Assembly: GCA_951406725.2 (NCBI GenBank)
Contig: OX597831.1
Span: 47,306,001 to 47,370,000, forward strand
DNA from: Octopus vulgaris
Taxonomy: Eukaryota
DNA: 64,000 nucleotides
Direction of reading: 5' to 3'
A model generated the notes under the pieces. It was not told where the DNA came from. It saw only the letters and a program-made list of their open reading frames with translations, and did not search any database. This document shows, piece after piece, positions 3,241 through 61,156 of the stretch. Numbering within the stretch: the stretch's first letter is position 1; every line of letters begins with the position of its first letter. The translations under genes were made by a program, and so were the position numbers.

Positions 3241-4199
3241 TTAAACTTTTAGATACCAACCCGCCTGAAACTTCCCTTCGTCCTATGATACAAACTTCCC
3301 ATTTTTAAATAATATAAATTAAAATTTCCATTGAAATTTCATGTTAATTTCTGTTCCAAACCCCAGCTGAATAATGTCAGAGTTATTTTAATAATTTTTT
3401 TATTATTTTCAAAAGGCAGTGTATTTCAAAATTATTTTTAAAAGGCAGTGGATTTTCAAAATTATTTTCAAAAGGCAGTATATTTTCAAAATTATTTTCA
3501 AAAGGCAGTGTATTTCAAAATTATTTTTAAAAGGCAGTGTATTTCAAAATTATTTTCAAAAGGCAGTGTATTTCAAAATTATTTTCAAAAGGCAGTGTAT
3601 TTCAAAATTATTTTTAAAAGGCAGTGTATTTCAAAATTATTTTCAAAAGGCAGTGTATTTCAAAATTATTTTCAAAAGGCAGTGTATTTCAAAATTATTT
3701 TCAAAAGGCAGTGTATTTCAAAATTATTTTCAAAAGGCAGTGTATTTCAAAATTATTTTCAAAAGGCAGTGTATTTCAGAATTATTTTCAAAAGGCAGTG
3801 TATTTCAAAATTATTTTCAAAAGGCAGTGTATTTCAAAATTATTTTCAAAAGGCAGTGTATTTCAAAATTATTTTCAAAAGGCAGTGTATTTCAAAATTA
3901 TTTTCAAAAGGCAGTGTATTTCAGAATTATTTTCAAAAGGCAGTGTATTTCAAAATTATTTTCAAAAGGCAGTGTATTTCAGAATTATTTTCAAAAGGCA
4001 GTGTATTTCAAAATTATTTTCAAAAGGCAGTGTATTTCAAAATTATTTTCAAAAGGCAGTGTATTTCAAAATTATTTTCAAAAGGCAGTGTATTTCAAAA
4101 TTATTTTCAAAAGGCAGTGTATTTCAAAATTATTTTCAAAAGGCAGTGTATTTTCAAAAGGCAGTGTATTTCAACAGAAATATGGTAAAGAAAGGTTAA
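3241..4199. mobile_element. TTAA-flanked piggyBac-type MITE hosting a tandem array
   Basis: TTAA at 3241-3244 and 4196-4199; arms match the uninterrupted ~230-bp relatives at 5825-6056 and 47438-47673. Confidence 0.75.
3402..4172. repeat. 29-bp minisatellite, about 26 copies (ATTATTTTCAAAAGGCAGTGTATTTCAAA)
   Basis: Period 29 read directly (e.g. 3541 and 3570); near-identical units with no spacers. Confidence 0.97.
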
Positions 4200-4882
4200 A
4201 CACCATACTAGATTAAATTACAGCCCTGAGTCCTCGAGTTCATGAAAAAAGAAAAAAATGCTGCTTCATGGGAGGCTCTCTGAAAGATATAGATTGGAGT
4301 TTCTTTTGTGTACAATGTATTAAAACTTGATTTTTAGTCTCAGAAAATCTGTTGTTTTCACATTCAAGTCATTTCTTGATTTTATCCGACAAATGGGATT
4401 TTCTTCCCATTACTGCCCTATAATCTCATTTGTTGCTAAACAAATTTGCCATGTAAGTTGTGGATCCTATCTCTCTGTGCAGCCCCTTAGATAAGTGTCT
4501 TGTACCCTTTAGTCAAATAAAGCCTCCCGAGTGAAATTTAGTTGACAGAAACTGTGGAAATCTGTCATAGGGGATTATTCTTGTGCTTATGTTGTTGAGT
4601 TAATCTTTTGTCTGGCATAGTAAAAATTAATTTTATTATATTTTTGAAAGAGTCATTATTAAAACTTATAAACATAGTCCATGCCCCCCACCTCAACTAC
4701 TTTTTTTGTTTTTGCCTCACCATCCTTATGGCTTTTTTTCAATGGATATAGAATTTCAAATGATGTATATTTTTTAAAATCCAAATATTTTGAAAATTTG
4801 TATTCATTGAAAAGGCAGAGATGGTATGGAGAAAGGTAAAAAAAACATTGAATATAGACAAACAACAGCTGTGATCATAAAC

Positions 4883-5312
4883 TTAACCCTTTAGTATTCA
4901 GATTATTCTGTGAAATGTAATGCATATTTATTCACTATGTTTTGGATTAATCATGCATTATCTGATAGCTTTGCGATTTTGATGATGTGATTGCATATTT
5001 CTAGAGTGACATTCTAAGTAGCTGTGAAAGGCTGAATCTGACCAGTTTAACCCTTTCGTTACCAACCTGGCTGAAACCGGCTCTGGCTCTGAGTACAAAT
5101 GTCTTGTTTTCATAAGTTTTGAATTAAAATCTTCCACCAAACCTTAGTCACAATTTATGTTCCTAACACTAGCTGAATGATAACTAAGTTATTTTACTAA
5201 ATTCTTTGTTATATTGAAAGTAATTGAAAGAAACACAGAGCATCTCAAAATATATACAGTAACGAAAGAGTTAAACATAAAACAGGAAAATATTTTGGCT
5301 GGATAGAGTTAA
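4883..5312. mobile_element. TTAA MITE family 2 with a nested family 1 MITE (5047-5274)
   Basis: Inner element TTAACCCTTTCGTTAC..GTAACGAAAGAGTTAA; host is the reverse complement of copies at 12815-13312 and 62129-62468. Confidence 0.85.
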
Positions 5313-5522
5313 ATAATATAATTTTTACAAAATATGACAATATTGGATTCAATACATAGTTTCTGATAAAAATTCTTATGAAACAAAGAAATTCAGTGTT
5401 AAATTCCTTATTATTTTGAAAAGTAATTAAGAAGATATAACTGGTCATGAAAGGATTAAATTGTATCTTAATGTATTATTATGTTTTACATAAACCAACC
5501 GAGTTTGAGAGATTCTTGCTAA

Positions 5523-5696
<174 letters not shown>

Positions 5697-7444
5697 TAAT
5701 AATTTTCTTTTCTTTATTTTCTCATTAAAGTTTATATTAGATCTTACTTGATCTACCAAGTGTTGTGTCCACCTTTAAGTATAGCTTACAATCACCTGAA
5801 ATATATATGATATAATTGCACATTTTAACCTTTTGATACCAACCTTCCTGCATATACACCTGATTCTATGGATACCAACTTCCAGTTTGAAAGTGATCTA
5901 AATTAAAGCCTTCCATCAAAATTTCATGTTAATTTTATGTTTTAACAACCAGTTTAATGGTGACAAGGTTATTCTACTAAATCCTTCATTATTTTCAAAA
6001 TAGATTGAAACAAAAGACTGTGTAAATCAACAGAAATAAGGTGAGGAAAGGGCTAAGCTCAGTTTAAGGTGAAAAAACCTATTAATTTGTCTTAAGGCAA
6101 TCAGCTGGCAAAATTGTTAGCACACGAGTTAAAATGCTTAGCAGCATTTCTTCTGTCTTTACATTCTGAGTTCAAATTTTGCCGAGGTTCACTCAGGGTC
6201 GATACAATAAGTACCATTTGAATATTGGGGTTGATGTAATCAACTTAGCCCACCTTCGTTGAAATTTCTGGCCTTGTGCCAAAATTTGAAAGCAGTTTAT
6301 ATATATTATCATAGGGTAAGAAGCTGGCATAATCGATAGCAATGCTGAGTAAAGTTTTTGTCTTTACATTCCGAGTTCATATTCCACTGAGGTCCACTTT
6401 GCCTTTCATCCTTTCAGGGTTGATAAAATAAGTACTAATTGAACACTGGCGTCAATGTAATTGATTTATCCCCTCCCCTGGAATTGCTGGTTGAGTGCCA
6501 AAATTTGAAATCAGTTAGAAATGAGTGACTGTGTGGTAAGTAGCTTGCTTACCAACCACATGATTCCGGGTTCAGTCCCACTGCATGGCATCTTGGGCAA
6601 GTGTCTTCTACTATAGCCTCAGGCCAACCAAAGCCTTGTGAGTAGATTTGGTAGACGGAAACTGAAAGAAGCCCATCATATATTTGTATATATATGTATG
6701 TGTGTATATGTTTGTGTCTGTGTTTATCTCCCCAACATCGTTTTGACAACTGATGCTGGTGTGTTTACATCCCCGTAACTTAACAGTTCGGCAAAAGAGA
6801 CTGATAGAATAAGTACTGGGCATACAAAGAATAAGTGCTGGGGTTGATTTGCTCAACTAAAGGCAGTACTCCAGCATGGCCGCAGTCAAATGACTGAAAC
6901 AAGTAAAAGAGAGAGTTACGTTGACTTTCTCATTTTAGTATATTTCATGCCTGACATAATCAACCTGTTTTTATGGAAAGACAAGCCTTATTTGATGCTG
7001 TAAAAATTATATTTATATCTTCTGTATGCCACTACTTCTGAATTTTTTTATGACTGATGAGACTAAATTTGTAATGGACTCAAGTCTTTTACCTGTCACT
7101 ATGCTACCTGTAAAAATATTTGTTTATCATGCACATACTTTCTTTTAATAGTAGACTGTTATATAGTTAAAGTCTTGTTAGTTACTATGGTAACAAGTCT
7201 ACCTCATCTATATATCTTTCACTCTCTCTGTCTTTCTCTCCCAGCAACAACTTGTTCTTTCTTTTTTTTTTTTCTTGAAACAAAGTTTAATTCTATCTTT
7301 CACGCACATATAGACACACACTAACACACACAGTCTCTCTCTTTCTTTCACTGAATTTCTCAACAACAACAACAACCTGTCATTATAGTGAAAGTTTTCT
7401 TTTAAAGTATGCATTGCATTGTCTCTATGTTGAAAGACATACAG

Positions 7445-7478
<34 letters not shown>

Positions 7479-7999
7479 CCAAAAGAATATCTATCTATAT
7501 TGTTATACAGTGAAAGTCTTTTTTTCCTTTTTCTGAAGCTGTGTTGCATTGTGTTGTCTCTATGTATGTAAATGAAAATAAGGTCTATCAATATTTTGAT
7601 AACTAAACACAGAATGCTTTTAATTGAGGTAGAAGTGACATCTGTTTACACACACTTATATAAACACGTGCAGGCATTACTGTGTGGTCAAGAATTTTTT
7701 CTTGGATTTAGCCCCACTGTGTAGCAACTTGTTTGGACAAGTCTCTTCTACTATAGCTTATCAAAATCCTGTGGAATGGATTCGGTCATCAGAAATTGAA
7801 AGAAGCCCATTGTGTGTGTGTGTGTGTGTGTACTGACATCTTGTGCTAACTGTAAACAAATGTCATTCCTCTGTATGAAAACTGGAGATTAAAATGATGA
7901 TAATGATATATATAATATAATATAATATAATATAATATAATATAATATAATATGATATAATATATATGTATATACATATATATATATATATATATATAC

Positions 8000-8180
8000 A
8001 GTAAATCCAAAAAAAGAAGATGAACAAACAAAAAAACAACAATGCAAGGATGTGGTACATGTGAAATATTAGCAGACGCTCAGGGAAGGAAAGAAAGATG
8101 GTTTAATATTTTGAGCAGATGCTCTTCTTCAAACAGAGGAAAGCCTAGTAAAAAGGAAGAAGATTGCCAACGATTCATAT
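8000..8180 (-). mobile_element. Decayed hammerhead-bearing short element (pLTR-like)
   Basis: Reverse complement aligns end to end with 38482-38690; core decayed to TTGAAGAAGAGC-atct-GCTC-AAAATATT; lies between (TA)n tracts. Confidence 0.65.
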
Positions 8181-8217
8181 GTGGTTACATTTTGAAAATC
8201 ATATATCTATGTATATG

Positions 8218-8260
<43 letters not shown>

Positions 8261-8891
8261 GAGAATAGATATTTATATTCAGTTTTATTCAGCAACCAAC
8301 TACTTCTTTTCCTTTCTGCACCTACGCCTGTTTCTGCAGTAATTAACTAATGCGCACTGCAAAATTTGTATCTTTGTGTGCACTTATTGTTAGTTGCCAC
8401 TTCTTCAGGGTGGAATCAACCACATTGTTCAAATAGAATCTAAATTAAATACAAGTCCAGCCAAAATACATGTGGTGCTGTCATTGTTCCAAAAAATAGC
8501 CTAGATCATGTCCTTTTCAACTCTGCTAGTTGTCCAAGGAATTTTAGTATTCTGCTGATGTAGACCATCCTTAAATGGTGAGTAGTAGTATTAATGCTTA
8601 GTATCAGGTTACCTTAAGTATGTTTTTTACTGTTATTATCATCCCTCACCTTAGTATTCCTGCCTCAGCCATTCTTATTATTATTGTTGATATTGTTAGT
8701 AATGAGCTATAAGTCTATTATTTAATTTGGTAATTTCATAATTAAATTAAATTTATTTAAATTTAAGGATATCATTAATTTAATTCCCAAACTGTTATAT
8801 AATCCCTGGAATAAGGTTGATTTATCTAGGAGTTTAATTCAATTACCCTCTCAATTTGCTATTGTTTACTTGATTTCAGTTCTATAATGAG

Positions 8892-9197
8892 AGCGTTCAC
8901 TGCTTCCATAGCTGAATGGAAGAAACCCTGAAGTATCAGGACCTGACAGTGAACTATCTCTTCCAACCTGTGGCATTTGAGACGTTCGGAGGGACTGGGC
9001 CACTAATCGCAAAGTTCTTGTCAATGTTCACAGCTCGCTTTACCGAGGTGTCAAGTGATGCCCGTGAGGGAGCTTGGCTTTCCCAATGCCTTAGCCTCGC
9101 CATCGCCTGTGGTAATGCTGTGGGCATGCTGGCTTGCTTCAGTAGGTTCTGTTAAAACTTGTGGTGTGCAACCAGTTACTGTGATAAAAAAAAAAAA
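8892..9197 (+). mobile_element. 5'-truncated CRE-like (restriction-like endonuclease) non-LTR retrotransposon 3' end
   Basis: ORF ..KYQDL..YLFQPVAFETFGGTGP..FL..SDAREGAWLSQCLSLAIACGNA resembles the CRE-clade RLE C-terminus; short UTR then A12 (9186-9197). Confidence 0.7.
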
Positions 9198-35076: not shown

Positions 35077-36469
35077 ACACACATATATATATATGCCTGA
35101 TGAAGCCTTCTAGCTTCACAGACCCCAGTTGAACCGTCCAACCCATGCTAGCATGGAAAACGGACACTAAATGATGATGATGATGATGATGATGATGATA
35201 CATACATACACAAACTCTCTCTTTCTCTCCCTCTCTCTCTCTCTCATACACACGTGTGCGCGTGCGCACTTATGTACGCGTGTATGATTAAATACATAAT
35301 CATACTTGCTGTTAGGAAGAGCAATAGGCTATTGAAACCAAGCTAAATGACACATACAAGTATCAGTTTATGGAAGCAGCAGTTCTCAGTAGGAGATGAC
35401 TCAGACTGTGATGACCTGCCCAACCCATGCCAGCTGGAAGGTGGATATACGATTGATGATGATGATGATGATGATGACATATATGTTTATTATATAGAGA
35501 TGCAGGCATGGCTTTGTGGTAAGAAGTTTGCTTCCCAACTACGTGGTTCTTGGTTCAGTCCCACTGCATGGCACCTCGGGCAAGTGTCTTCTACTACATC
35601 CTTGGGCCAACCAAAGCCTTGTGAGTGGATTTGGTAGATGGAAACTGAAAAGAGCCTATATGTGTGTGTATGTGTGTCTTTGTGGCTGTGTTTGTCCCTC
35701 CCCCCTCCCCACCACCACAGGATAACCAGTGCTGGTGTGTTTACGTCCCTGTAACTTAGCAATTTGACAAACGAGACCGACAGAATAAATACCAGATTTC
35801 AAAAAATAAGTACTGGGATTGATACATATGACTAAACTTCTTCAAGGTAGTGCCCCAGAATGGCCACAATTCAATGACTGAAACAAATGATTATATATAT
35901 ATATTGTTCAAAATGTACAGTATTATATATCCATCACAGCCGGTCTTACCAATTGGTTTTGCACTAGGGATACAATGGAGGACGTGGAACAAATATAGTA
36001 TTATTGGATGCTCAGGAAAGAAGGGAAGAAGGAGAGTTTAACGTGGCATCTTCCATTTTCTGTCTCTCATTATACACACACACACACACAGAATGGAAGA
36101 CAGAGGAAAAAATATATATATATACATATATACGACGGGCTTCTTTCAGTTTCCATCTGCCAAATCCACTCAAGGCTTTGGTCGGCCAGAGGCTATAATA
36201 GAAGACACTTGCCCAAGGTGCCACACAGTGGGACTGAACTCGGAACCATGTGGTTGGTAAGCAAGCTACTTACCACACAGCCACTCTTACCAAGAAAAAA
36301 ACTTTCTATAAACAAGATGCACTCTTGTTTATATCACTAACAAGGAGATAAGTTGCTGTTATTTCGAGCAGACAAATGCCATCATTGACAAGACGAAGGA
36401 AGGTTGAAATCACATTATCCAATGGCCTGGTGCTGCAGGTGAAGAGGATTTATCTCCCCTCCAGCAATA

Positions 36470-37107: not shown

Positions 37108-38447
37108 ACTTTCATATATAATAGTGTGTGGCAAATTAATTTGTTTTGCACATTCTTACAGAAACTCAAGGCTGAGGCTAACTACATAGATATTTTTTAT
37201 TTTCATTCTCTTTGAAATTGGTCTAATTCTTGGTTTGGGCTTTAACTGCCCTTTCTAGCAAGTAAGGTGTCTTGTCAAAGGGCACCTCTTTCGTGTATAA
37301 ATATGTAAATATGTTTATACACTATTGTATATGAAAATATGTTGTCTAAGTGCAAGAGTGGCTGTGTGGTAAGTAGCTTGCCTACCAACCACATGGTTCT
37401 GGGTTCAGTCCTATTGCATGGCACCTTAGGCAAGTGTCTTCTACTATAGCCTGAGGCCAACCAAAGCCTTGTGAGTGGATTTGGTAGACGGAAACTGAAA
37501 GAAGCCAGTCATATATATGTATATGTATCTGTGTGTATGTGTTTCTGTATCTGTGTTTGTCCCCTCCAACATCGCTTGACAACTGATGCTGGTGTGTTTA
37601 CGTCCCCGTAACTTAGCGGTTTGGCAAAAGAGACTGATAGAATAAGTACTGGGCTTCCAAGGAATAAGTCCTGGGGTTGATGTGGTCGACTAAAGGTGGT
37701 GCTCCAGCATGGCTGCAGTCAAATGACTGAAACAAATAAAAGAGTAAAGAATAAGATTATTGACTTTATTACCCTTATTATTTTCACAGTAAACTTTTTG
37801 TAGTTTCAAAGCCTTTCTGGTATGCAGTTTTAAATTTTTTTAATTATTATTTGCTGCCAAATGTATCTGCACTTGTGTTGTGGATGTAGCATGTGTGTTT
37901 TTGGTACTATTTGCTTCATAAATATGCATTAACCCTTTTGTTACCAGCCCGGCTGAAACCACCTCTGGCTCTGTTTCTAGGATATTTATTATATCCCTAC
38001 CAGAGCAGCCAACTGGCTTCCATGCCAGTGGCATGTAAAAGGGCACCATTCGAGCGTGATCATTACCAAAGTCGCCTTACTGACACCTGTGCTGGTGGCA
38101 TGTGTAAAAGGATTCAAGCGAGGTTGTTGCCAGTACCGCCTGACTGGCCCCCGTGCCGGTGGCACGTAAAAAGCACTCACTACACTCTCGGAGTGGTTGG
38201 TGTTAGGAAGGGCATCCAGCTGTAGAAACTCTGCCAAATCAAGATTGGAGACTGGTGCAACCATCTGGTTCGCCAGCCCTCAGTCAAAATCGTCCAACCC
38301 ATGCTAGCATGGAAAGCAGACGTTAAACGATGATGATGATGATCAGAGACGGTGTGAGAAGATGATTAAGCAATAGTTAATTTAGATAAGATATGAAATA
38401 GAGAGTGACACTTTTGGGTCTCACTGACACCATTACCTCTCATAACC

Positions 38448-38484
<37 letters not shown>

Positions 38485-38553
38485 CCACGTGTGTATCATT
38501 GACGATTTTTATCCTGTGTCTTCCCTTCCTTGGACTTTTTCTTTTTTTTCTAT

Positions 38554-38588
38554 ATTTCTGACGAAGAGCTCCGCTCGAAACGTTAAAT
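38554..38588 (+). ncRNA. Minimal hammerhead ribozyme core within a ~210-bp element (38482-38690)
   Basis: ATTT-CTGACGA-A-GAGC-tcc-GCTC-GAAAC-GTT-AAAT: both conserved boxes, stem II, stem I ATTT/AAAT and loopless palindromic stem III (ACGT). Confidence 0.75.
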
Positions 38589-40109
38589 TCTCCTTCTTTC
38601 TTTCCTTTCCTGAGTATCCAATAGCACTATACTTATTCCATGTCCTCACGTTGTTGTGTTTTCTCTTTGTTCGTGTTTGGATTAACTATGTATACATTAT
38701 AAGCTTTCTTACAGGATCTGTGTGCCAAATTTCACTGCTCAACTTGAAACTATGGTAGAAAGTATTATTTCCCTTAATTACTATGAAGTGAGATTGAACT
38801 GCCAGCCACATGGGTACAATGCAAACTTCGTTAATCACACACCCATTAATGAGGTGTGAATGTGAATGAAATGCTAACAATATTGCATATTCAGTATTGT
38901 ATATAGTATTAAATGTTGGTTTCAAATTTTAGCACAAGACCAGCAATTTCAGGGAGAGAGGTAAGTTGATTACATCAACCCTATTGCTCAACTGGTACCT
39001 ATCTTATCGACTGAGAAAGGATGAAAGGCAAAGCAAACCTCTGCAGGATTTGAACTCAGAGCATTAAGCCAGATGAAATACCGATTTTTTTATTACCCAC
39101 ATGGGGCTAAACATAGAGGGGACAAACAAGGACAGACATAGGTATTAAGTCGATTACATCGACCCCAGTGCGTAACTGGTACTTAATTTATCGACCCCGA
39201 AAGGATGAAAGGTAAAGTCGACCTCGGCGGAATTTGAACCCACAACGTAACGACAGACAAAATACGACTACGCATTTCGCCCAATGTGCTAACGTTTCTG
39301 CCAGCTCGCAGATGAAATACCGTTAGCCATTTTGACCAGCATGCTAACAGTTCTGCCAGCGTGATACCTTAATATATAGTATTAAACATTAAAATGCTTT
39401 TCTTTAATGTACAATATTATGGCTACTGACAGTTTTGAGGTCAAGATCTATAAGCTGGCCATTCAATATCTTATCGACTCTGTCATTTCTTTTTGTTTAT
39501 TTATTTTATCTGACATATTTTGAATAACTGTGTCATTTGTTATAGATTCCCAATGGGTTAGGCTCTAGTTCACTGCATTTGTGTTACTGCATGTGACAAG
39601 GGTGTATCTGTGTAACTCTGGAGAAACAAATATCACAAAGTATTTTCAATGGACAGCACTAGTTTACTTCCCTTGCAATCGTTTACATCTTTTGCTGAGA
39701 CAAACCATTATCATTTAGAAACCAGTTTTTCCTGCTTGCATAAATCAGTTGGAGTTTGTTGAGGTTGGATGCTCTTCCTGTTGCCCACCCTCACCTATTT
39801 CCCAGCAAGATAGTGTTTTTCCATAACTAGCCATGTTTTTCATGAAAGACTGGAAATAAATAAGCTCACTCGAATACTGATGATGCTTATTTACAAGCAA
39901 CATGGACTGTCTAGGCAAGGGAGCAGATGTACACACACACACACACATACACACAAGCACACACACACACATGCACACACACACACACACACACACATTT
40001 TTAATTAGAAGCAACTGTAATAATTTAAGCGTTAATAATGACACATAGTTAATGTATGCAGTTAGTTTTTAAAATTATTGGCTTAAGGATTCATCCAGAT
40101 AAAAAGATA

Positions 40110-50082: not shown

Positions 50083-50287
50083 AATTAAAAGGAATGCTAA
50101 GACTGTTTGTGTTTTATTATTTGGAGATGGAGAAACAATGGGTTAAAACCTGCTGAGGATCATAGCAACTGATAATCTCTCCATGGCAAACAAACAACCT
50201 GGAAGGGGACATGGAAGATTTTAAGCTTCTATAGAATAATTTAACCGAATAAAATACCAGTTGAATTCTGGGGTTGATTTAATATAG

Positions 50288-50472
50288 GGAAAGTTTATGA
50301 AAAAAACAAAAGACAAAGACAGGTGGTGTACAAAACAAACAGATGTATCAGTATAATGCTCAGGAATAGAAAAAGTATTTTACGTTTCAAGCCTACGCTC
50401 TTCTACAGAAAGGGACACAGAAAAAACAAGGAGAGAGAAAAATGTGTGTAGTGGCTAACGATTTATCATGGC
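50288..50472 (-). mobile_element. Hammerhead-bearing short element, variant core
   Basis: Minus strand 50411-50378 reads TTT-CTGTAGA-A-GAGC-gtag-GCTT-GAAAC-GTA-AAA, followed by TTCCTGAGC as in the 8.0 kb copy (TTCCTGAG in the 38.5 kb copy). Confidence 0.65.
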
Positions 50473-50814
50473 GACTGAATTAATAGTCCTCTACTGCAGT
50501 GTTTCACATAGTGAGGGGTATACTGCAAAGACTTAAAAAGATGGTGGGCAAACTGCAAGGTGTGATAAAACTAAGATGGTTTTTAAACTTTTTAAACCTG
50601 TCAAATGCCACAACAAAGAAATAATTACATGGTTGCAAACTCTGTTTTGTCTTTTCATTGATAAACAGTGGGAGGGGCCTAAAGTTTCACTAAGTTCTTT
50701 TTTTCTTTTTCTTTTTTTTTTTCTGGTGGGGGGGCCCTGATATTTGTCAGTTTAAGAACCACTACTGTAAAGCATCCTAAAACTGAGTGGAATTTCTACA
50801 ATTGAAGAGTTATG

Positions 50815-51065: not shown

Positions 51066-51950
51066 TTGTCAGCCAGTTAAGAGATTCTCAAGTCGAATGT
51101 TGTTATAATGTAAGCAAGTTCTCTGCAGGACAGTTGTCTTTCGGACAGGAATTCTGTTTCGATAGATAAGTAAAAAAGAAGATCATGCAGATAACAGAGT
51201 ATCTGACTAAACTGCTTTGTAATTTTTAATTTCTTTTCTAATCTACTGAAATTAGTACGAGCGTCGTCCCATTCGACTAGAATCCTCTCATTGTTTACTT
51301 GCGTTTTCTTGCACTCGTCGACTTGCAGTTGTTGTTTAATAAGAGCATCAACTGCATTGCTCTCAGCAACCTTGAAGAGCTCTCGAGATGGCCATTGACA
51401 CAACAAGTCCTTTCTTCAGACCTAACTATAAAAAAAAAAAATAATAAAATGCTGTGCTGCGAAAAATTGAATACACTCCTCCTCTTGTGTCCCATCAAAC
51501 GAAATCACTTTTGTAGTTAGATGTTTATCACGTCACAAAGTAATAATAATCGTCGTATTATTTTGTTTTTTTTTCCCCGTTCGAAATAAAAATAGTAAAT
51601 ATTCGACATTTCTTCTACTGAGTATATTGCAAAAAACAACATTTTAGTAAGTTTTAATTCCTTGTTATCTTCATTGTAACTAGTTATTCTTCATCAAAGT
51701 AATGTGCCGGCTAATGTTGACAGGCCAGCATCAAAGTTTTTTTTTTGTAGCATTGTGCAGATGTGCTACCTGCGTAAAACTGGGCGTTAACACGTGTGTG
51801 TGCATTTCTGCAAAACTGGTGTTCTTACCTGCGTATTTCTGGAGATAATAACAAGTACATTCATGTTTGCTGAATCGCTTTCTTTCTATTTTAAACGCCA
51901 GCGAAATACGTTCCGTCATAAAACACCGATAACGAGGAGGGCGATAGAAT
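51066..51950 (-). ncRNA. Candidate spliced non-coding or 5'-UTR exons (about 51950-51829 and 51421/51425-51066)
   Basis: CAG|GTAAGA donor, T12-ATAG/TTAG acceptor and AA|GTGAGT donor in unique CpG-retaining sequence; no long spliced ORF. Confidence 0.4.
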
Positions 51951-55451: not shown

Positions 55452-55719
55452 ACATTATTTACAATTGATGGATATTTGTCCTCATCTTGTTTGTTGTTGA
55501 CACAACGTTTTGGCTGATATACCCTCCAGCCTTCGTCAGGTGTCTTGGGGAAATTTTCGAACCTGGTTTCTCATTCCTAAGGTATTTCCCCAAGACACCT
55601 GATGGAGGCTGGAGGGTATATCAGCCGAAACGTTGTGTTAACAACAAACAAGATGAGGACGAATATCCGTCAATTGTAAATAATGTCCATAATACCTCAT
55701 CTCTTAAATATAGAACTGT
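55452..55719. mobile_element. Penelope-type inverted pLTR pair, each arm with a hammerhead motif
   Basis: 103-bp arms 55452-55554 and 55584-55686; duplication ATAACCA(G/A)ACATGT at 55438-55451 and 55720-55733; cores at 55544-55499 (-) and 55594-55639 (+). Confidence 0.8.
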
Positions 55720-60336: not shown

Positions 60337-61156
60337 GTGCAGCTTTATCCTTCGATAATGACAAGTCTCTAACTAAATCATTTAACTCTCCTTGAGAAAA
60401 TTTCTGTGGTACATCTTTTCAATCATGATTTCACGATTAAAATCGTGAAATCTGCACCCACTTCAGTATCTTCGACAGCAGTAATATTTTCTTCAGGAAA
60501 TACATCTTTGTCAGACATCTGAAGGCCATTTTCTGGTGGTATTGGAATAAAAAGATCATCATCGTTGTGTGGTACTGGTCTTCTTGCTGATTCCAAGTTG
60601 GGATACACAATCTTATGCTTGGTCTTTACAATAAACCCACATACATTATTAACATTGCAGAAATAACAGTCCATGAAATGATCCTTTGGCTCTCCCCATA
60701 TAAGTATTGCAAATGGCATTGCTCTCTTCCCCTAATTGAGTCAATCCCTTAGTCCATTTGAACAAGCTGAGCAGATGATGTGCGGGTCCCAACTCTTATC
60801 TTGATCCCCAGGAGAGCAGCCAAAGTATAACTGGTAGATCTTGCAATGGCACATTGCTGAGTTTTGGTGGTAAATGATTTCACTTGTAATGGCACGTTGC
60901 TGAGTTTTGGTGGTAAATGAACCACAGACATGACAAAATATATCAGGACTATTCTTGCAATGCCTTGACATAGAATTTACCTGTATAAGATGTTTACGTG
61001 TAGCAATACTGCTGATGGGAGTTATATACCTCTCTTATTTCATCAGAAAAACTGTGCCTGATAGAAGGAAACTGATGACATTTTTAAAACCTGCAGACAA
61101 AACTACATATAAAACACCATATAATATCCCTGATGAAAATTGGCTGTTGACCTTTG
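60337..61156 (-). pseudogene. Truncated DNA transposon, Chapaev3/CMC-like transposase N-terminus
   Basis: MSRHCKNSPDIFCHVCG..YFGC..GDQDKSWDPHIICSAC..MPFA..W.EPKDH..DCYFC..YPNLESARRPVPH..FSQGELNDLVRDLSLSK; stops; 43-bp internal duplication; TIR-like end near 61156. Confidence 0.75.

What the first reader, a model, noticed from the sequence alone, without database searches (positions are those of the whole stretch)
38482..38690. Dispersed ~200-nt non-coding mobile family built around a minimal hammerhead ribozyme
Seen: 38554-38588 has an intact core CUGACGA-stem II (GAGC/GCUC)-GAAAC-GUU with stem I ATTT/AAAT and a loopless ACGT stem III. Homologous units occur at 8000-8180 (-, decayed) and 50288-50472 (-, CUGUAGA variant); two of the three sit beside TA/TG microsatellites and none has an ORF. 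Known: Penelope-like elements carry minimal hammerheads with palindromic stem III in their pLTRs, thought to cleave as dimers, and non-autonomous retrozymes exist in animals. Inference: three copies in 64 kb suggest a high-copy solo-pLTR or retrozyme-like family, possibly undescribed in this lineage.
Basis: partly seen in the sequence, partly recalled or inferred. Interest (0 to 1): 0.85.

Follow-up and report, generated by a model that had tools for sequence, protein, structure and literature searches.

The report
Solo Penelope-element ends carrying minimal hammerheads
This is a real minimal hammerhead-ribozyme motif inside one of more than 13,000 scattered ~210-base end pieces of a Penelope-like jumping gene, an arrangement already described in animals; this lone copy is likely inert, and the curious point is that very abundant sister subfamilies have fixed changes in the ribozyme's catalytic core.

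Summary
It lies in a ~210-nt unit with at least 13,031 exact-core copies genome-wide (4,183 CUGA plus 8,848 CCGA). The unit is not a retrozyme. It is the terminal pseudo-LTR of a Neptune-clade Penelope-like retrotransposon: 13 of 19 and 14 of 20 loci chosen by endonuclease DNA alone carry it downstream on the same strand, and two have pLTR-ORF-pLTR form. Copies are mostly solo and end in (TA)n. Most span the scissile bond, so templates were likely uncleaved. Stem I covaries across subfamilies, yet subfamily masters carry U4C, A6U or G17 cores. Inferred origin: internal priming at a TTTATATA run, then run-off at an initiator-like 5' end. Cleavage is untested. This matches Cervera and de la Peña 2014, and this scan noted the same kind in two other genomes. 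I found no paper describing this family; Repbase and Dfam could not be searched. Verdict: new member of a known kind.

The parts
38480..38689 (+). Solo pseudo-LTR (terminal ~210 nt) of a Neptune-clade Penelope-like element, family A, CUGA subfamily
   Evidence: 3,819 candidates genome-wide; the best 39 non-self hits are 88-90% identical with shared ends; same unit lies downstream of PLE endonuclease ORFs at up to 89% identity to this copy
38554..38588 (+). Minimal type I hammerhead motif: 4-bp stem I, CUGACGA core, extra A, 4-bp stem II, loopless palindromic ACGU stem III; predicted cut after U38584
   Evidence: stem I covariation; cleavage untested
38452..38483 (+). (TG)16 microsatellite fused to the unit's 5' end (GTG microhomology)
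38679..38700 (+). Fixed 3' end (GGATTAAC at 38679-86) followed by a short degenerate TA remnant, the inferred priming and target site
   Evidence: 45 of 51 scored copies have a TA-type repeat within 5 nt of this end
8001..8198 (-). Older-subfamily solo pLTR with decayed hammerhead (about 8101-8136), between (TA)n tracts
35978..36111 (-).
50282..50478 (-). Solo pLTR of sister family B; hammerhead about 50377-50412 with family-fixed A6U core and GUA site
   Evidence: one B locus (L056) has a related PLE endonuclease upstream on the same strand

Best explanation
The unit is a solo pseudo-LTR, the terminal ~210 nt of a Neptune-clade Penelope-like retrotransposon, containing the minimal hammerhead motif typical of such elements; it was likely copied into a TA/TG microsatellite by the parent's reverse transcriptase from uncleaved RNA, and this lone copy is likely inert. 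Shown by the sequence: the parent is pLTR - 5'UTR - ORF (RT, Cys linker, GIY-YIG) - long CA-rich 3'UTR - pLTR - (TA)n, and in the parent the pLTR end continues as TTTATATA into the 5'UTR. Inferred steps: (1) the endonuclease nicks (TA)n, the nick anneals to this internal UUUAUAUA run and primes reverse transcription, which fixes the 3' end (about 75%); (2) the RNA starts at an initiator-like TCAKTY inside the upstream pLTR, so the enzyme runs off after ~210 nt and gives a solo pLTR with a sharp 5' limit, trimmed to a TA/TG microhomology (about 50%); (3) the hammerhead cannot form stem III alone and would cut only as a dimer and/or with the element's protein, weakly, and the cut is not needed for insertion (about 75%).
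For: Parent link: 13 of 19 loci picked by one endonuclease DNA (seed excluded) and 14 of 20 picked by another have the unit 0.4-3.4 kb downstream on the same strand. Background is 2 copies in 190 kb, binomial P<1e-10 even at the window's own density. L168 and L174 have it on both sides; L168, L174 and L182 run from the unit straight into the 5'UTR and ORF. The ORF has the DKG motif and a CxxxxCxxC linker before GIY-YIG. It is 53% identical to P0013, whose RT start matches the Neptune1_Ap row of PMC8557442's supplement by eye. 3' ends: 45 of 51 copies end in TA repeats, many keeping the element's TTTA, and the 5'UTR continuation occurs only in ORF-bearing loci. 5' ends: 34 of 38 scorable copies (64 examined) stop within 11 nt upstream of the GTGACC box, 10 of them at the TCATTC-type motif; many family-B copies start at TCAGTC. 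Stem I outer pair: G-C 27, G-U 25, C-G 22, A-U 16, unpaired 15 of 105; 0 of 500 shuffles reached the double-change count. The monomer is predicted to misfold with core bases paired (-7.7 kcal/mol), and the active dimer scores -3.5 against -20.1 for the best cofold. Literature: min-HHR features and mostly single copies (PMC4209133); internal RT initiation, protein-assisted HHR, cleavage not needed for insertion (PMC11167929); start site inside the pLTR (PMC2377424, PMC6765202).
Against: No cleavage or transcription start was measured. Two-thirds of exact-core copies have U4C and family B has A6U, so selection for catalysis looks relaxed. The covariation rests essentially on one pair and about three independent changes among related sequences. 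A 7-bp hairpin (-9.4 kcal/mol, z -2.05) spans the family-A 5' boundary and could explain it without a start site; no DPE-like box was seen by eye. In PMC11167929 priming was not homology-driven. 5' junctions are about 2.5-fold commoner just 3' of the scissile bond than just 5' of the core (250/5,047 against 131/about 6,500-7,500, the latter denominator estimated), so a minority of templates may have been cleaved. The parent ORFs examined were all broken.
Confidence: 0.85

Rival explanations
1. The ~210-nt unit is an independently amplifying non-LTR retrozyme that is cleaved to unit length, circularised and re-inserted by rolling-circle reverse transcription.
For: Small, non-coding, hammerhead-bearing and very abundant; retrozymes are proposed to derive from PLE pLTRs (bioRxiv 10.64898/2026.07.22.740005); solo copies far outnumber ORF-bearing ones (818 and 570 endonuclease candidates).
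Against: No array of three or more units; 11 adjacent pairs among 184 copies are mostly inverted or mixed-family, and only one B-B and two A-A pairs are same-strand, the A-A pairs being two different subfamilies and two fragments. Animal retrozymes carry canonical HHRs in tandem repeats (PMC7229834). A circular template would give head-to-tail copies rather than a sharp 5' limit.
Confidence: 0.05
2. Same parent, but solo copies arise as a SINE-like non-autonomous RNA transcribed from solo pLTRs and mobilised in trans, or by 5' truncation or hairpin stalling from the 3' pLTR, or by recombination between two pLTRs, rather than by run-off from the upstream pLTR.
For: A hairpin spans the family-A 5' boundary; solo pLTRs in Adineta were ascribed to recombination or deletion, and pLTRs can mobilise sequences in trans (PMC3846280); subfamilies form clean clades.
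Against: Family B has the same initiator-like motif at its boundary without a hairpin in the same position (by eye). Both examined CUGA and CCGA subfamilies have their own ORF-bearing parents. Recombination would give variable 5' limits like the upstream pLTRs of L168, L174 and L182.
Confidence: 0.35
3. The motif is a catalytically dead relic whose stems are kept for another job (binding or positioning the element's protein), not for cleavage.
For: Subfamily masters fixed U4C (8,848 exact copies), A6U (44 of 45 B) and G17 (6 of 120 A, in one clade) while stem II and the ACGU palindrome stay constant; no peak of 5' junctions at the scissile bond (8 of 38 loci); HHR mutants did not affect insertion in PMC11167929.
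Against: C3, G5, G8, A9, G12-A14 and the G10.1-C11.1 pair are retained across families A and B (the rows were picked by a regex that fixes part of this). Natural U4C keeps enough activity for viroid infectivity (PMC3088659). The window's own subfamily has the full canonical core.
Confidence: 0.25
4. A chance match to the hammerhead consensus inside an ordinary SINE.
For: Rfam finds no hammerhead; the isolated fold is not more stable than shuffles (z -1.5).
Against: 0 hits in 300 simulated windows; compensatory stem I changes; it lies in a PLE pLTR, where such motifs are expected.
Confidence: 0.01

Closest known systems
Minimal hammerheads (min-HHR) in pLTRs of metazoan Penelope-like elements (Cervera and de la Peña 2014, PMC4209133)
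   Same: Type I; 4-bp helix I; unpaired nucleotide between 9 and 10.1; G10.1-C11.1; palindromic 15.2-16.2 with no loop 3; U-rich 5' flank; thousands of mostly single copies with few in full elements; mollusc examples (Lottia, Crassostrea) in its supplement.
   Different: Helix II is 4 bp rather than the 7-8 bp of the Schistosoma families; copy number (at least 13,031 exact cores for family A) exceeds the 4,000-9,000 quoted there for coelacanth and Xenopus; family-fixed U4C and A6U cores are not mentioned in the parts read; no octopus entry in the one supplement file that could be searched.
Neptune-clade EN+ PLEs (e.g. Neptune1_Ap; clade definition in PMC8557442 and PMC3846280)
   Same: [quoted passage not shown]
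   Different: New family; long (roughly 1-3 kb) CA-rich 3'UTR; the hammerhead lies about 500 nt upstream of the ORF, in non-coding sequence. Clade assignment is by motifs and similarity, not by a tree.
PAc (Poseidon of Anolis carolinensis; PMC11167929)
   Same: HHR in the pLTR; reverse transcription starting internally downstream of the HHR on unprocessed RNA, AT-rich target.
   Different: PAc primes without homology at two sites inside the ORF, giving a 30-40-nt tail; here a single 3' end coincides with an internal TA-like run, and no tail class was seen in the loci held.
Non-LTR retrozymes of animals (PMC7229834)
   Same: Small, non-coding, type I HHR, low GC.
   Different: Those are tandem repeats with canonical HHRs and circular RNAs; here the copies are solo, minimal and have a coding parent.
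Hydra-1_Obim and Naiad_Obim/Ovul (octopus PLEs in PMC8557442 supplement)
   Same: PLEs with (TA)n preference in what is likely the same animal group; Hydra-1_Obim has a listed HHR.
   Different: Different HHR sequence and different clades (Hydra: DKT motif; Naiad: N-terminal endonuclease).

Membership tests
PLE minimal hammerhead (Cervera 2014) | Core boxes CUGANGA and GAAA, U16.1-H17, type I topology | tested here: met
   (window copy); not met in U4C, A6U and G17 sister subfamilies
PLE minimal hammerhead (Cervera 2014) | Unpaired nucleotide between 9 and 10.1, and a G10.1-C11.1 pair | tested here: met
   A38565; G38566-C38576; G-C 97 and G-U 8 of 105 (rows preselected by regex)
PLE minimal hammerhead (Cervera 2014) | Palindromic 15.2-16.2, no loop 3; short helix I with covariation | tested here: met
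   ACGU; stem I outer pair G-C/G-U/A-U/C-G
PLE minimal hammerhead (Cervera 2014) | Located in the pLTR of an RT-EN Penelope-like element | tested here: met
PLE minimal hammerhead (Cervera 2014) | Self-cleavage as dimer, none as monomer | not testable with these tools
   Folding energies only; only contigs were available for RNA
Neptune-clade PLE (parent) | Single ORF with RT and C-terminal GIY-YIG endonuclease | tested here: met
   Broken but collinear in L175, L182, L210, L217, L226; 53% to P0013, which has RVT_1 and GIY-YIG hits; direct Pfam scores of the decayed ORFs were below cut-off
Neptune-clade PLE (parent) | CX2-5CxxC linker between RT and EN; DKG motif | tested here: met
Neptune-clade PLE (parent) | Phylogenetic placement in Neptune rather than Nematis | tested here: inconclusive
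   No tree built; P0013 matches the Neptune1_Ap row by eye
Neptune-clade PLE (parent) | Partial-tandem pLTR-ORF-pLTR and inverted arrangements; microsatellite target | tested here: met
   L168, L174; inverted pairs L124, L190; 45 of 51 TA ends
Non-LTR retrozyme | Head-to-tail tandem arrays of units | tested here: not met
   No array of three or more among 184 copies
Non-LTR retrozyme | Canonical type I HHR with helix III and loop-loop contacts | tested here: not met
Non-LTR retrozyme | Accumulates as circular RNA | not testable with these tools
   Only contigs available; uninformative
Already named Repbase/Dfam family | Match to a curated consensus | not testable with these tools
   No such library among the tools

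The most novel reading that the evidence does not exclude
This superfamily is a natural allelic series showing that PLE hammerhead catalysis is dispensable while the fold is kept: masters with U4C, A6U and G17 cores each amplified, and U4C copies outnumber canonical ones. The tens of thousands of solo pLTRs would be 'strong-stop'-like run-off cDNAs, primed by TA microhomology at the pLTR/5'UTR junction and ending at the transcription start. That would be a genome-scale, in vivo footprint of internal initiation, and would explain both Neptune (TA)n targeting and the long-noted excess of single min-HHRs.
Probability: 0.3. Interest if true: 0.55.

Novelty: new member of a known kind. Interest (0 to 1): 0.3.

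Why it matters
The kind is known, so the catch itself is ordinary. Its value is as test material for two open questions on Penelope-like elements: whether the hammerhead has to cleave, and how single pLTRs arise. One genome offers canonical, U4C, A6U and G17 versions with matched parents and thousands of junctions, so both questions become directly testable. It also suggests that some abundant short 'SINE' or 'unknown' repeats in this genome are PLE termini.

Tried and rejected
Rfam scan: no hammerhead family matched. CpG decay as the source of CUGA from CCGA: rejected, because with position 4 masked the two states still sort into separate clades with many linked diagnostic sites (105 near-full-length family-A copies of 130). 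The young 781-aa PLE family found with PF01541 is not the parent: of 30 loci, none had a full family A or B unit downstream on the same strand. A fossil peak of 5' junctions at the scissile bond: one search looked like one (17 of 24 plus-strand loci at or just 3' of the bond, 0 upstream, 7 ambiguous), but the wider profile showed junctions spread along the downstream tract (8 of 38 at the bond, 29 further 3', 1 upstream). So there is no peak, only a dip inside the structured core and a roughly 2.5-fold excess downstream, which stalling or microhomology could also give. Expression and cleavage ends: no RNA holder listed; laying four contig-only runs gave no informative joints or ends, so no evidence either way. 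A pattern for a longer 5' extension found only its source locus. No target-site duplication is discernible because the flanks are microsatellites. Two window ORFs (51080-51415, 60426-60731) had no Pfam match. Lünse et al. 2016 (PMC5785218) is not held; only its title was seen, and it may already report some of these core variants. Earlier-findings look-ups by sequence and by place returned nothing.

Full report
OBSERVATION. A structural descriptor finds it once in the window and in 0 of 300 order-1 Markov windows. Rfam has no matching model (79 matches at E<=5, none a hammerhead). The two named homologues are real, and a fourth fragment lies at 35978-36111(-). The genome has 2.8 Gb in 227 contigs. 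From this size, about 30 large contigs and the repeat content I infer an octopus; the resemblance of the window's SINEs to octopus SINEs is recalled, not tested.

FAMILY SIZE AND SHAPE. The unit gives 3,819 candidates, and the 39 best non-self hits are 88-90% identical with shared ends. Exact core patterns occur 4,183 times with CUGA and 8,848 times with CCGA, with 0 in the reversed controls. These are lower bounds. The 50-kb unit belongs to a sister family B (3,648 candidates) with U at position 6 in 44 of 45 scorable copies of 54. I fetched 40 of the 100 listed CUGA places and 20 regions from the 100 listed CCGA places. Nearly all are solo. 45 of 51 copies with a recognisable 3' end are followed within 5 nt by a TA-type repeat. 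Of 64 core-bearing copies, 38 had a recognisable 5' box; 34 of these stop within 11 nt upstream of it, 10 at 9-11 nt, and 4 extend 21 to 40+ nt. The other 26 are further truncated or divergent. Among 184 copies held, 11 pairs lie within 150 nt, mostly inverted or mixed, and none forms an array.

THE PARENT. Two of the 40 CUGA loci (L106, L136) had a PLE endonuclease and a CA-rich tract upstream on the same strand. I used their endonuclease DNA alone as queries (818 and 570 candidates) and extended the top 20 of the 40 listed hits (seed included) and the top 20 of the 39 non-self hits. The unit lies downstream on the same strand in 14 of 20 (13 of 19 without the seed) and in 14 of 20 (one of them weak). 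Background is 2 copies in 190 kb of loci not chosen for it, giving P<1e-10 even at the window's density. In the second set the downstream unit is up to 93% identical to the window subfamily's consensus and up to 89% to the window copy. L168 and L174 have pLTR-ORF-3'UTR-pLTR form. In L168, L174 and L182 the upstream unit continues through TTTATATA into a 5'UTR and the ORF; this continuation occurs only in ORF-bearing loci. [quoted passage not shown] P0013 has RVT_1 and GIY-YIG hits and matches by eye the Neptune1_Ap row in the supplement of PMC8557442. Pfam scores of the decayed ORFs themselves were below cut-off, all copies examined were broken, and no tree was built. One family-B locus has a related endonuclease (53%) upstream on the same strand.

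THE RIBOZYME MOTIF. In 105 distinct ribozyme regions (rows preselected by a regular expression on stem II, GAAA and ACGU, so conservation there is partly built in) 95.7% of cells pair. The outer stem I pair reads G-C 27, G-U 25, C-G 22, A-U 16 and unpaired 15; 0 of 500 shuffles reach the 40 double-change cells, and slid controls fall to 8-42% paired. This is one pair with about three independent changes, running G-C to G-U to A-U across the tree. Against strict catalytic selection: position 4 is C in the larger subfamily, and this follows the tree when the site is masked, so it is not CpG decay. Position 6 is U throughout family B, and H17 is G in 6 of 120 family-A copies. The window monomer is predicted to fold with UGACG paired to CGUUA (-7.7 kcal/mol, z -1.5), and the catalytic dimer scores -3.5 against -20.1 for the best cofold.

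WAS THE TEMPLATE CLEAVED? Most copies span the scissile bond. A narrow search suggested junctions piling up at the bond. A wider one showed them spread along the downstream pyrimidine tract: 8 of 38 listed loci at the bond, 29 further 3', 1 upstream. Junction rates are 250/5,047 (5.0%) just downstream and 131 over an estimated 6,500-7,500 (about 2%) just upstream of the core (denominator estimated). A minor cleaved class is possible, but stalling or microhomology explains this as well. Public runs were contigs only and uninformative; related words occur in four coded organisms.

MECHANISM. Shown: the unit is the element's pLTR; its 3' end coincides with an internal TA-like run; its 5' limit coincides with a TCAKTY motif in families A and B (that this is an initiator consensus is recalled). 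Inferred: nicked (TA)n primes on the internal run (about 75%); the enzyme runs off at a start site inside the upstream pLTR, giving solo copies (about 50%; a hairpin across the boundary is the main rival); the hammerhead is weak, dimer- or protein-dependent and not needed for insertion (about 75%).

COMPARISON WITH WHAT IS KNOWN. PMC4209133 (parts 1-2 of 4 read; supplement file 2 searched, file 1 not searchable) defines min-HHRs with exactly these features, mostly as single motifs, with low activity even as dimers. PMC11167929 (parts 1-2 of 4) shows internal RT initiation, a protein-assisted HHR and insertion independent of cleavage. PMC8557442 (passages and supplement passages) defines the Neptune linker and microsatellite bias and lists other octopus PLEs, one with an HHR. 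PMC7229834 (part 2 of 6) and bioRxiv 10.64898/2026.07.22.740005 (part 1 of 5; its supplements not seen) define retrozymes as tandem arrays. PMC3088659 (passages) notes that natural U4C lowers in vitro activity but permits viroid infectivity, and that A6C is slow. PMC2377424, PMC6765202 and PMC3846280 (passages) place the promoter and start in the pLTR and mention solo pLTRs. PMC13282606 (part 1 of 3, passages, supplement search) reports 190 PLE families covering 6.83% of an octopus genome, with no mention of ribozymes. Eight searches found no description of this family or of an A6U hammerhead core. Lünse et al. 2016 was not available, and Repbase and Dfam could not be searched. Two earlier notes of this scan report the same kind in other genomes; I did not test them.

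VERDICT. A real feature, correctly spotted; a new, very abundant family of a kind described in 2014. Interest 0.3. The bolder reading (catalysis dispensable across successful subfamilies; solo pLTRs as run-off cDNAs) has probability about 0.3 and would merit about 0.55.

Noticed in passing
L073 (G000:C16:20837296-20840559) and many places: A different, apparently young PLE family with an identical-length 781-aa open frame at many loci. Its 3' region holds a hammerhead-like motif with a U3-A8 core and palindromic stem III (about L073:2760-2810) and ends in (TA)n; it is a candidate active element.
   Followed up: partly
window 50282-50478 (-) and L032-L060: Family B has an A6U hammerhead core fixed in 44 of 45 copies and is about 96% identical to its consensus; one literature search for A6U found no hammerhead example.
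   Followed up: partly
window 55506-55635: Near-perfect long inverted repeat (arms about 45 nt), MITE-like; Rfam's MIR9486 match is below gathering score and probably reflects only the hairpin.
   Followed up: no
window 3402-4159: Tandem array of a 29-bp unit, 26 copies, 97% matches.
   Followed up: no
window 51080-51415 (-): Open frame with coiled-coil-like composition that looks like a host exon; no Pfam match. If so, the family-B copy may be intronic.
   Followed up: partly
window 60426-60731 (-): Open frame with a Trp/His/Cys motif recalled from DNA-transposon proteins; no Pfam match.
   Followed up: partly
window-wide (e.g. 529-681, 1744-2620, 6073-6911, 37356-37769): Many copies of two or three abundant SINE-like repeats of 150-400 nt.
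   Followed up: no
L114:3000-3440: A family-A unit joined directly to the N-terminal part of the parent ORF, an internally deleted derivative.
   Followed up: partly
L023, L028, L112, L117, L123: Family A and B units often sit next to each other, probably because both insert into the same (TA)n tracts.
   Followed up: no
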